Source of the DNA: Escherichia coli O157:H7
GTDB taxonomy: Bacteria; Pseudomonadota; Gammaproteobacteria; Enterobacterales; Enterobacteriaceae
Direction: 5' to 3' (one strand)
DNA: 64,000 nt
Assembly (NCBI RefSeq): GCF_013167455.1
Contig: NZ_CP038328.1
In this document: positions 481 to 1,140 of the stretch, piece after piece
How positions within the stretch are numbered: the stretch's first letter is position 1
How the letters are laid out: every line of letters begins with the position of its first letter
Notes under the pieces: generated by a model
Database searches by the model: none
What the model was told of the DNA's origin: nothing
The model's input: the letters and a program-made list of their open reading frames with translations, nothing else
Program-made: the position numbers and the translations under genes

Positions 481-648
481 TCAAGCATTATGCAGGCTGT
501 TTCTTTTTATCACCGGCCACAGCAATACCACAATGCCGCAGACCAGCCCCCCATCCGCCAGCACCGACATGATTCTGCTGGTGAAATCCACCATCACCAC
601 CAGAAACAGCAGGAGTGCAGCCACAGCCAGACGCAGTTTTACCGTCAC
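481..648 (-). CDS. Small hydrophobic membrane peptide (56 aa, GTG start overlapping stop of upstream ORF)
   Basis: VTVKLRLAVAALLLFLVVMVDFTSRIMSVLADGGLVCGIVVLLWPVIKRNSLHNA; two predicted hydrophobic helices. Its GTG overlaps the TGA of the TerB-like frame (GTGA arrangement). Confidence 0.4.
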   Translation of the reverse strand: MTVKLRLAVAALLLFLVVMVDFTSRIMSVLADGGLVCGIVVLLWPVIKRNSLHNA

Positions 649-1037
649 AGGTAATTCTCCAGACGAAGACCCAGAACACCGGCAATCTCTTCCAGCACCT
701 TGCGCTCTTCCGGCTCAATTTCGCCGTCTGCCTCCGCAATGGCCACCGCCACATCCAGCACATCTTCCGCTTCACGCGTATCGTGTTTCACATCCTCGAT
801 CTCACGTAACGCCGCACGACGACCAGTTTTAAAGTTCGTATCCAGCTGACCGATAATGGTTGCGCTAATCGCATTAATTTCTGACGTAAACGCGGACAGC
901 GCTGGCTGATTACGCAGTACCTGTTCGATCTTCGCTTTCTAGGAAGCCTCACATTCACCATCTGCACAGGCCACCAGGTATGCGGCGTTAATCACCGCCT
1001 GTGCCAGATCGCGTTTCTCAAACTTTCCTTTTTCCGG
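645..1037 (-). pseudogene. TerB-like (tellurite-resistance TerB / DjlA-N type) ORF interrupted by an in-frame amber codon
   Basis: Frame reads ...KRDLAQAVINAAYLVACADGECEAS-TAG-KAKIEQVLRNQ...VAIAEADGEIEPEERKVLEEIAGVLGLRLENYL. Two A-x-ADG-x-E repeats typical of TerB-like domains. TAG at 939-941 on the minus strand; no ATG start between the upstream TAA and the TAG. Confidence 0.4.
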
Positions 1038-1140
1038 TTAACGTGACACACCAATAACTCTTGTCGAAAAAGCCAGCAAGCAGAAAGACCGGTATTCACA
1101 ACCACCAGCGCGTTTACTGTACTGGCGTGATTTCAGTCAT

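What the first reader, a model, noticed from the sequence alone, without database searches (positions are those of the whole stretch)
481..1140. Cargo between Q/pR' and the lysis region: amber-interrupted TerB-like ORF coupled to a 56-aa membrane peptide
Directly downstream of the Q gene, putative late promoter and tR' lies the slot where Stx phages carry toxin cargo (established knowledge). Here it holds a TerB-like frame with two A-x-ADG-E repeats. That frame is cut by an in-frame TAG (minus strand, 939-941) and has no ATG start. Its stop overlaps the GTG start of a 56-aa two-helix hydrophobic peptide (GTGA overlap), followed by a strong terminator at 252-285. Either this is a decaying moron or a two-component membrane-associated module with unusual expression (amber suppression or an alternative start).
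Basis: partly seen in the sequence, partly recalled or inferred. Interest (0 to 1): 0.6.

Follow-up and report, generated by a model that had tools for sequence, protein, structure and literature searches.

The report
Decayed phage tciA–tciB cargo cassette
This is a broken copy of a known phage accessory gene pair (tciA, a TerB-like protein, and tciB, a small membrane peptide) in an E. coli O157:H7 prophage; RefSeq already annotates it as a pseudogene and the same genome type keeps intact copies in other prophages, so it is ordinary.

Summary
On the minus strand, just downstream of the Q gene and a tR'-like terminator, lies a TerB-family frame (645-1037). It has an in-frame TAG at 941-939 and no start codon. 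Its TGA overlaps the GTG of a 55-aa two-helix DUF3927 peptide (648-481).

It is not an unusual expression device. It is tciA-tciB, a cassette named in phage P1 and common in lambdoid prophages. Intact homologues encode a 143-aa TciA with GAG (Glu46) where this copy has TAG, and Glu46 is invariant in the six divergent phage homologues aligned here.

This copy also lost its ribosome-binding site, ATG and first 18 codons. A deletion fused a leader of the type found after Q in Stx2 phages to codon 19. All 59 junction-bearing loci that could be read also carry TAG. TAG also occurs alone and with a +1 frameshift, so it is one step in a decay series.

NCBI's PGAP pipeline already flags the frame as a pseudogene. 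O157:H7 genomes hold intact tciA-tciB pairs in other prophages. tciB here is intact with its own Shine-Dalgarno site, but its status is uncertain. An STnc100 sRNA gene (473-307) lies between tciB and the terminator.

Verdict: decaying cargo gene, already known, low interest.

The parts
1245..2066 (-). Late antiterminator Q gene (273 aa), upstream neighbour of the cassette
   Evidence: ORF; annotated 'antitermination protein' WP_000762929.1 in identical O157 genomes
1212..1239 (-). Candidate late promoter pR' (-35 TTGATT 1239-1234, 16-nt spacer, TGgTAAATT extended -10 ending at 1212). Inferred only.
   Evidence: Read directly from the sequence. Almost identical in phage Evi (alignment A1). Below the threshold of the promoter scan, so unproven.
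1140..1164 (-). tR'-like intrinsic terminator (stem 1164-1147 plus T-run)
   Evidence: Terminator scan, 7 pairs of which 5 are G-C, followed by TTTTTTT
1024..1168 (-). Leader segment of the type found after Q in Stx2 phages and phiP27. It keeps the ribosome-binding site but not the ATG of a small ORF that follows it in those phages.
   Evidence: Query positions 133-277 match Stx2a phages and phiP27 at 82-92% identity; contexts; alignment A2
1023..1026 (-). Deletion junction. The leader is fused to tciA codon 19, with shared AAA / GGAAA microhomology.
   Evidence: Alignment A2. The window follows the Stx2-type sequence up to ...CCGGAAAAAGGAAA and follows tciA from GTTTGAGAAACG onward.
645..1037 (-). 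tciA pseudogene (TerB family). It lacks codons 1-18, the ATG and the ribosome-binding site. Homologous to codons 19-143 of intact TciA. Stop TGA at 647-645.
   Evidence: PGAP annotates 1007-645 as a 'tellurite resistance TerB family protein' pseudogene with an internal stop.
939..941 (-). Amber codon TAG replacing GAG (Glu46 of intact TciA)
   Evidence: GAG in phages Evi, JLK-2012 and PPyecE and in all 77 intact loci analysed. Glu46 is an invariant column in the alignment with P1, Erwinia, Pseudomonas and Vibrio homologues.
481..648 (-). tciB, an intact 55-aa ORF (DUF3927, two hydrophobic helices). GTG start overlaps the tciA TGA (GTGA). Own GGAG Shine-Dalgarno site 8 nt upstream. Carries V34G relative to the common allele.
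   Evidence: DUF3927 E=1.7e-16; PHROG 1470 E=1.5e-29. Annotated as WP_000216629.1.
307..473 (-). STnc100 sRNA gene (Rfam RF02076) between tciB and the terminator
   Evidence: cmscan 101.6 bits against a gathering score of 47, E=4e-22, full model. 167-nt STnc100 copies are transcribed in EDL933.
252..279 (-). Strong intrinsic terminator (stem 279-261, 8 pairs of which 7 are G-C, then T8)
1..166 (-). Start of the next late gene, a SASA-family sialate O-acetylesterase (nanS-p type). It runs off the window.
   Evidence: ATG at 166-164; annotated WP_000023170.1 in the identical genome

Best explanation
The locus is a decayed copy of the phage accessory cassette tciA-tciB. It lies in the late operon of a lambdoid prophage of E. 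coli O157:H7, integrated next to potC.

**How the intact cassette is built.** In intact relatives, a 143-aa cytoplasmic TerB-fold protein (TciA) is followed by a 55-aa two-helix inner-membrane peptide (TciB, DUF3927). The GTG of tciB overlaps the tciA stop codon. The pair is transcribed from pR' under Q antitermination.

**What is broken here.** tciA was inactivated twice.
1. A G-to-T change turned the invariant Glu46 codon GAG into TAG.
2. A deletion then fused the leader that follows Q to codon 19. This removed the ribosome-binding site, the ATG and 18 codons.

No TciA protein can be made from this copy.

**Why the remnant persists (inferred).** It lies between elements that are still in use: Q/pR'/tR' upstream, and tciB, the STnc100 sRNA, nanS-p and the lysis genes downstream. 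The O157:H7 genomes examined also carry intact tciA-tciB pairs in other prophages, so losing this copy costs little.

**Shown:** both lesions, their order, the pseudogene status and the family assignment.

**Inferred:** the membrane-anchored TerB/TciB working model, the hitch-hiking explanation, and whether tciB is still translated from its own Shine-Dalgarno site.
For: **Identity and annotation**
- 100% identity over 1101 nt to many O157:H7 genomes, where PGAP marks the TerB-family CDS as a pseudogene with an internal stop, followed by an intact DUF3927 gene.

**The TAG**
- Intact 143-aa TciA in phages Evi, JLK-2012 and PPyecE has GAG where the window has TAG.
- Glu46 is invariant across P1, Erwinia, Pseudomonas and Vibrio homologues.

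**The 5' deletion**
- The 5' end is a chimera with the Stx2/phiP27-type post-Q leader.

**Decay series in IMG/VR loci plus loci fetched from annotated records**
- 77 intact loci.
- 44 loci with TAG plus the 5' deletion.
- 31 loci with TAG plus a +1 A frameshift after codon 7.
- 2 loci with TAG only.
- All 59 readable junction-bearing loci have TAG. Some of them add D39N, a roughly 50-codon internal deletion or an insertion.

**Selection**
- pN/pS is 0.08 in intact copies (80 synonymous, 19 nonsynonymous variants) and 0.26 in TAG copies (11 and 9). Fisher p=0.02.

**Expression requirements**
- No tRNA gene in the 64-kb window.

**Redundancy**
- O157:H7 strains TW14359 and F7508 hold intact tciA-tciB pairs elsewhere.
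- 804 of 5426 complete E. coli genomes hold tciA-like DNA, with a median of 4 places per genome.

**Family**
- Pfam TerB E=2.2e-12, DUF3927 E=1.7e-16, PHROG 632 and 1470, PDB 2JXU.

**Dispensability**
- P1 tciA, tciB and tciC score as nonessential by CRISPRi (PMC10695390).
- Nearly half of subgroup-1 P1-like phage-plasmids have lost the operon (PMC9603915).
Against: - No expression data for this exact locus were examined, so translation of fragments cannot be formally excluded.
- The TAG allele is surprisingly common: 576 of 5426 complete genomes, 961 places, up to 5 per genome. It sits on several prophage backbones. This could hint at something more than neutral hitch-hiking, although O157 and other STEC are heavily over-sampled.
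- pN/pS in the TAG group (0.26) is still below 1 and rests on only 20 variants, some of which are probably imported by recombination from intact alleles.
- tciB remains intact here and in all 31 TAG+frameshift loci, so the cassette is not uniformly dead.
Confidence: 0.9

Rival explanations
1. tciA is still expressed by unusual means. Amber read-through or suppression, together with a non-canonical start, would give a functional two-component TciA/TciB module.
For: - The frame downstream of TAG is still open to the normal stop and keeps the GTGA overlap with tciB.
- The TAG allele is widespread.
Against: - There is no ATG, GTG or TTG between the upstream TAA (1040-1038) and the GTG at intact codon 28. 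The first possible start lies 18 codons before the TAG.
- The native ribosome-binding site, ATG and 18 codons are deleted.
- There is no tRNA gene in the window.
- The stop replaces an invariant Glu.
- Sister copies accumulate frameshifts, deletions and motif mutations.
- Homologues are not stop-bearing in general: all 77 loci of the intact group carry GAG.
Confidence: 0.02
2. tciB survives as a stand-alone functional membrane peptide. It would be translated from its own Shine-Dalgarno site, or coupled to a 48-aa C-terminal TciA fragment that starts at GTG 791. The dead tciA would then be only its leader.
For: - tciB is an intact 55-aa ORF. A GGAG site lies 8 nt upstream, with -6.4 kcal/mol pairing to the anti-Shine-Dalgarno sequence.
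- Phage 434 carries tciB without tciA.
- All 31 TAG+frameshift loci keep tciB intact.
- The 48-aa fragment is common enough in phage records to form its own PHROG family, 3920.
Against: - Among loci with the 5' deletion, 18 of 44 have tciB truncated (W44*) or frameshifted, against 1 of 77 among intact loci (Fisher p=1e-8, not corrected for shared ancestry).
- The O157 allele carries V34G in the second helix.
- The GAGG before GTG 791 is only 2 nt from the start codon.
- No function has been shown for any TciB.
Confidence: 0.3
3. Inactivation of tciA was selected rather than neutral. For example, a phage TerB homologue might interfere with, or be redundant to, the chromosomal ter island of STEC. 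That would explain the spread of the TAG allele across prophage backbones.
For: - The TAG allele is in 576 complete genomes, up to 5 copies per genome, on at least three 5' backgrounds and with two different Q types.
- TerB is reported to form a core complex with TerC (PMC12054061).
Against: - The O157:H7 strains and the non-O157 STEC examined keep intact tciA-tciB copies. This argues against selection to remove TciA.
- Sampling is dominated by clonal STEC.
- Recombination among co-resident lambdoid prophages can spread a neutral allele.
- The link to the ter island was not tested.
Confidence: 0.05

Closest known systems
[quoted passage not shown]
   Same: - TerB-like TciA is 42-51% identical.
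- It is directly followed by a DUF3927-type TciB that is 50% identical, with abutting or overlapping stop and start codons.
- tRNA genes are neighbours in intact lambdoid copies, as in P1.
- The operon is nonessential accessory cargo.
   Different: - There is no tciC here.
- The position is in the Q-dependent late operon of a lambdoid prophage.
- tciA here is a pseudogene.
Intact lambdoid tciA-tciB cassettes (phages Evi, JLK-2012, PPyecE_EH1910; other O157:H7 prophages)
   Same: - More than 90% nucleotide identity.
- Same order: Q - (tRNAs) - tciA - tciB - STnc100 region - nanS-p - lysis genes.
   Different: - This copy lacks codons 1-18 with the start signals.
- It carries TAG at codon 46, plus Y37C and H142Y.
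- The tRNA genes and other genes between Q and tciA are deleted.
TerB of the terZABCDEF tellurite-resistance determinant (K. pneumoniae TerB, PDB 2JXU)
   Same: - Same fold family: Pfam PF05099 E=2.2e-12, and phmmer against 2JXU E=4.4e-8 over residues 14-137.
- Paired acidic ADG...E motifs.
   Different: - No terC, terD or terZ neighbours. The partner is a 55-aa peptide, not TerC.
- No evidence that TciA confers tellurite resistance.
stxAB cargo slot of Stx-converting phages
   Same: - Same position: downstream of Q/pR'/tR' and upstream of STnc100, nanS-p and the holin gene.
- The leader fused to tciA here is of the Stx2-phage type.
   Different: - The cargo is tciA-tciB, not a toxin.
- The tciA member of the pair is inactivated.

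Membership tests
TerB family (Pfam PF05099) | Significant profile match across the TerB domain | tested here: met
   - The intact homologue, which has the same sequence as the window from codon 19 on apart from Y37C, E46*, I84T and H142Y, hits PF05099 at E=2.2e-12.
- The window's own frame hits PHROG 632 at E=7.5e-60 over profile positions 17-143.
- PDB 2JXU at E=4.4e-8.
TerB family (Pfam PF05099) | Complete, translatable coding sequence with both acidic ADG...E motifs intact | tested here: not met
   No start codon or ribosome-binding site, codons 1-18 deleted. The Glu of the first motif, invariant in all six aligned homologues, is replaced by TAG.
ter operon (terZABCDEF) tellurite resistance determinant | Neighbouring terC/terD-type genes; tellurite-resistance phenotype | tested here: not met
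   The neighbours are Q, tciB, STnc100 and nanS-p. The phenotype cannot be tested with these tools.
Phage tciA-tciB cassette (PHROG 632 + PHROG 1470) | TerB-like gene immediately followed by a DUF3927 small membrane-protein gene with overlapping or abutting stop and start | tested here: met
   - GTGA overlap at 648-645.
- DUF3927 E=1.7e-16.
- PHROG 1470 E=1.5e-29.
- The same arrangement is found in P1, Erwinia phage ChrisDB, Evi and JLK-2012.
Pseudogene | Orthologous or paralogous copies intact at the same positions, with disabling lesions in this copy | tested here: met
   All 77 loci of the intact group have ATG and GAG. This copy has a 5' deletion and TAG. PGAP flags it as a pseudogene.
Pseudogene | Relaxed purifying selection and accumulation of secondary lesions in the disabled lineage | tested here: met
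   - pN/pS is 0.26 against 0.08 (Fisher p=0.02; small counts, not corrected for phylogeny).
- Secondary lesions: frameshift, D39N, internal deletion and insertion in sister copies.
Pseudogene | No protein product | not testable with these tools
   Needs ribosome profiling or proteomics of the induced lysogen.
Programmed stop-codon read-through / suppressor-dependent gene | Stop conserved among homologues, usable start codon, and a suppressor tRNA or read-through signal available | tested here: not met
   The stop is absent from all intact homologues. There is no start codon and no tRNA gene in the window.
STnc100 sRNA (Rfam RF02076), adjacent element | Covariance-model score above the family gathering threshold | tested here: met
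   101.6 bits against 47, full-length model match at 473-307.
Known anti-phage defence systems (PADLOC-DB) | Profile match to a defence-system protein | tested here: not met
   There was only a weak hit, TciA to PDC-S48 at E=0.0035 and 14.5 bits. TciB had no hit.

The most novel reading that the evidence does not exclude
The dead tciA is more than debris. One version is that TciB alone, or TciB with the 48-aa C-terminal TciA fragment, is a functional late-expressed membrane peptide. The other is that the amber allele spread through STEC prophages because losing TciA is advantageous in hosts that carry the ter island.
Probability: 0.07. Interest if true: 0.35.

Novelty: already known. Interest (0 to 1): 0.1.

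Why it matters
It matters little. The locus is a routinely annotated pseudogene of a named phage accessory cassette whose function has never been shown.

There are three modest points of value:
- The exact lesions and their order are now defined: nonsense mutation first, then a 5' deletion or a frameshift. This gives a clean allelic series of cargo-gene decay across lambdoid prophages.
- The cassette occupies the same slot as stx, next to the STnc100 sRNA. This helps in reading this variable region of STEC prophages.
- The conserved TerB-like/DUF3927 pairing across very different phages (P1, lambdoid, an Erwinia jumbo phage) marks an uncharacterised two-gene module. It would be better studied from an intact copy than from this one.

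Tried and rejected
- **Amber suppression or phage-borne suppressor tRNA.** ARAGORN found no tRNA gene in the first 6 kb or in the whole window. Rejected.
- **Alternative start codon.** No canonical start lies upstream of the GTG at intact codon 28. The next in-frame start after the TAG is GTG 791, which gives a 48-aa fragment and has a poorly spaced Shine-Dalgarno site. Not supported.
- **Defence-system membership.** PADLOC gave no meaningful hit.
- **NCBIfam.** Only a sub-threshold match to the TerB-like part of DjlA, 28.6 bits against a cut-off of 162. Not informative.
- **Literature on tciA, tciB and DUF3927.** Only homology-based naming, CRISPRi nonessentiality in P1 and variability among P1-like phage-plasmids were found. 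There is no functional study.
- **pN/pS for tciB.** The simple per-codon count was invalidated by indels in several alleles and was discarded. Counts of disrupted versus intact ORFs were used instead.

Full report
**Observation**

The prophage genes lie on the minus strand of the window, which reads as follows.
- A 273-aa Q antiterminator gene (2066-1245).
- A promoter-like TTGATT-16 nt-TGgTAAATT (1239-1212). This is my reading of the sequence; it falls below the scan threshold.
- A tR'-like hairpin with a T-run (1164-1140).
- A frame that is open from 1037, is cut by TAG at 941-939, and ends at TGA 647-645.
- The TGA overlaps the GTG (648-646) of a 55-aa ORF (to 481) with two hydrophobic segments.
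- A strong terminator lies at 279-252.

The peptide is 55 aa rather than 56. An STnc100 sRNA gene (473-307; 101.6 bits against a gathering score of 47) lies between the peptide gene and the terminator.

**Identity**

The window is 100% identical over 1101 nt to many E. coli O157:H7 chromosomes. There the prophage lies next to potC. From memory, this is CP-933M/Sp4.

NCBI's PGAP pipeline annotates window 1007-645 as a 'tellurite resistance TerB family protein' pseudogene with an internal stop. It annotates 648-481 as an intact 'DUF3927 family protein', WP_000216629.1.

Profile results:
- The window's own conceptual translation matches PHROG 632 ('tellurite resistance') at E=7.5e-60.
- The peptide matches PHROG 1470 ('TciB-like') at E=1.5e-29.
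- Pfam gives TerB at E=2.2e-12 for the intact homologue and DUF3927 at E=1.7e-16 for the peptide.
- The solved TerB structure 2JXU aligns over residues 14-137 at E=4.4e-8.

The gene names tciA and tciB come from phage P1, where they were assigned by homology only.

**What is broken**

Phages Evi, JLK-2012 and PPyecE_EH1910 carry an intact 143-aa TciA followed by TciB with the same GTGA overlap. Aligning them with the window shows two lesions.

1. *Nonsense mutation.* The window's TAG is GAG (Glu46) in all three phages. In an alignment that includes P1, an Erwinia jumbo phage, Pseudomonas phage Zuri and a Vibrio phage, Glu46 is an invariant column. It is the Glu of the first ADG...E motif.
2. 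*5' deletion.* Homology to tciA begins only at codon 19. Upstream of that, the window instead matches the leader that follows Q in Stx2a phages and phiP27 (query positions 133-277; contexts). Alignment A2 places the junction at 1026-1023 (...CCGGAAAAAGGAAA|GTTTGAG...), within a short GGAAA/AAA microhomology. In the Stx2-type phages that leader runs into the ATG of a small ORF. Here the ribosome-binding site remains but the ATG does not.

The deletion therefore removed the ribosome-binding site, ATG and first 18 codons of tciA. It also removed whatever lay between Q and tciA. In relatives that stretch holds a small ORF, a DNA methylase, tRNA genes or a toxin-antitoxin-like pair.

The only canonical start codon upstream of the TAG is a GTG 18 codons before it.

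**Population evidence**

In 5426 complete E. coli genomes:
- An exact 43-mer centred on the TAG occurs in 576 genomes at 961 places.
- The same 43-mer with GAG occurs in 159 genomes. This is a lower bound, because other intact alleles differ in the flanking bases.
- tciA-like DNA as a whole occurs in 804 genomes at 2719 places, with a median of 4 per genome.

In IMG/VR, 539 stretches encode a relative, and the best 80 are all full-length and intact. 83 stretches carry the TAG.

I classified the retrieved IMG/VR loci, together with loci fetched from annotated phage and E. coli records:
- 77 intact.
- 44 with TAG plus the 5' deletion.
- 31 with TAG plus a +1 A frameshift after codon 7. One example is an O111:H8 prophage with a different Q type and tRNA-Ile/Arg genes upstream.
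- 2 with TAG only and an intact 5' end.

A search for the deletion junction that did not depend on the TAG returned 53 stretches. Together with the copies already in hand, all 59 readable ones carry TAG. Several carry further damage: D39N in the ADG motif, a roughly 50-codon internal deletion, or an insertion.

The nonsense mutation therefore came first, and different secondary lesions followed. That is the signature of a decaying gene.

Variant counts agree. There are 80 synonymous and 19 nonsynonymous variants in intact copies (pN/pS 0.08). There are 11 and 9 in TAG copies (pN/pS 0.26). Fisher p=0.02, with small counts and no phylogenetic correction.

**Redundancy**

O157:H7 strains carry intact tciA-tciB pairs in other lambdoid prophages. 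Examples are TW14359 (WP_001302123.1 and WP_000216636.1) and F7508. In both, the pair lies downstream of tRNA-Ile/Arg genes and upstream of a nanS-p-type esterase gene. Non-O157 STEC carry several copies that are 100% identical to the Evi allele.

**Status of tciB**

The ORF in the window is intact. A GGAG site lies 8 nt before the GTG, with -6.4 kcal/mol pairing to the anti-Shine-Dalgarno sequence, so independent initiation is plausible. Phage 434 carries tciB without tciA, and all 31 TAG+frameshift loci keep tciB intact.

Against this, 18 of 44 loci with the 5' deletion have tciB truncated (W44*) or frameshifted, compared with 1 of 77 intact loci. The O157 allele also carries V34G in the second helix. 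I leave tciB as 'possibly still functional' at about 0.3.

**Unusual expression**

- No tRNA gene is present in the 64-kb window.
- There is no usable start codon.
- The stop replaces a residue that is invariant in all six aligned homologues.
- The stop is not conserved among homologues.

The read-through or suppression reading is rejected (about 0.02).

**How the intact module probably works (inference)**

The TciA/TciB pair recurs, with abutting or overlapping stop and start codons, in P1 (tciABC) and in Erwinia jumbo phage ChrisDB. Pseudomonas phage Zuri has a TerB-like gene followed by a small membrane protein.

TerB is reported to act with the membrane protein TerC as a core unit of the ter stress-response determinant (PMC12054061). 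My working model is a cytoplasmic, probably metal-binding, TerB-fold protein held at the inner membrane by the two-helix TciB. It would modulate envelope or ion stress, or superinfection, late in infection.

Nothing here tests that model. PADLOC gave no defence-system hit. The P1 genes are nonessential (PMC10695390), and nearly half of subgroup-1 P1-like phage-plasmids have lost them (PMC9603915).

**Slot**

The cassette occupies the variable cargo position between Q/pR'/tR' and STnc100 / nanS-p / lysis genes. STnc100 is reported directly downstream of stx2B in Stx2 prophages (PMC12711010).

**Verdict**

The feature is already annotated and belongs to a named family. Interest is low (0.1).

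Noticed in passing
window 307-473 (-): A full-length STnc100 sRNA gene (RF02076, 101.6 bits) lies between tciB and the terminator. A possible promoter (TTGATT at 484-479, overlapping the tciB stop codon) would put its 5' end near 460. EDL933 RNA-seq reports three 167-nt STnc100 copies, all transcribed, and this is probably one of them (PMC5331693).
   Followed up: partly
window 4097-4271 (-) and about 3947-4159 (-): A sok antisense RNA (RF01794, 114 bits) with a hok-type toxin gene (annotated hokD in the identical genome) lies in the early region of the same prophage. A weak isrK-like hit (27.7 bits, below the gathering score) is at 3857-3938.
   Followed up: no
E. coli complete genomes; L010, L100, L166: The same amber allele of tciA, usually with Y37C, is found in 576 of 5426 complete genomes, up to 5 copies per genome. 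It occurs behind two different Q types and on at least three 5' backgrounds. A dead allele has therefore spread widely among lambdoid prophages, presumably by recombination.
   Followed up: partly
L002 2049-2282; L004 about 2260-2540; L177 316-469 and 1901-1976; L178 386-854; L191 1607-1859: Intact tciA-tciB cassettes are nearly always flanked by phage tRNA genes: Asn/Thr/Gly in JLK-2012, Asn/Thr and Ile in P1, Trp/Cys in the Erwinia jumbo phage, and Ile/Arg in O157 prophages. The Asn-Thr ... tciAB arrangement is shared by P1 and a lambdoid phage. No explanation was sought.
   Followed up: no
L003 1663-2650 (phage 434): Phage 434 carries a tciB homologue without tciA. It is preceded by an unrelated 247-aa putative membrane protein, so the DUF3927 peptide can combine with other partners.
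   Followed up: no
L193 1530-1643 (E. coli 266917_2) and hits H268-H283: In many non-STEC E. coli, a short remnant with 87% identity to the tciA 5' region is annotated as a partial 'DUF3927 domain-containing protein' pseudogene, next to IS elements and hypT. It looks like another fossil of the cassette outside an obvious prophage.
   Followed up: no
window 1114-1140 (-): An 8-codon ORF (MTEITPVQ*) starts immediately after the tR' T-run. A similar one (MAEIGPVQ*) is in the homologous leader of Stx2a phage Stx2_14040, but not in phiP27. It is probably fortuitous.
   Followed up: no
IMG/VR loci of the 5'-deletion group; L008: A recurrent tciB W44* truncation (43 aa, still annotated as a DUF3927 protein) occurs in 14 of 44 loci that have the tciA 5' deletion. 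This suggests that tciB starts to decay once tciA is lost.
   Followed up: partly
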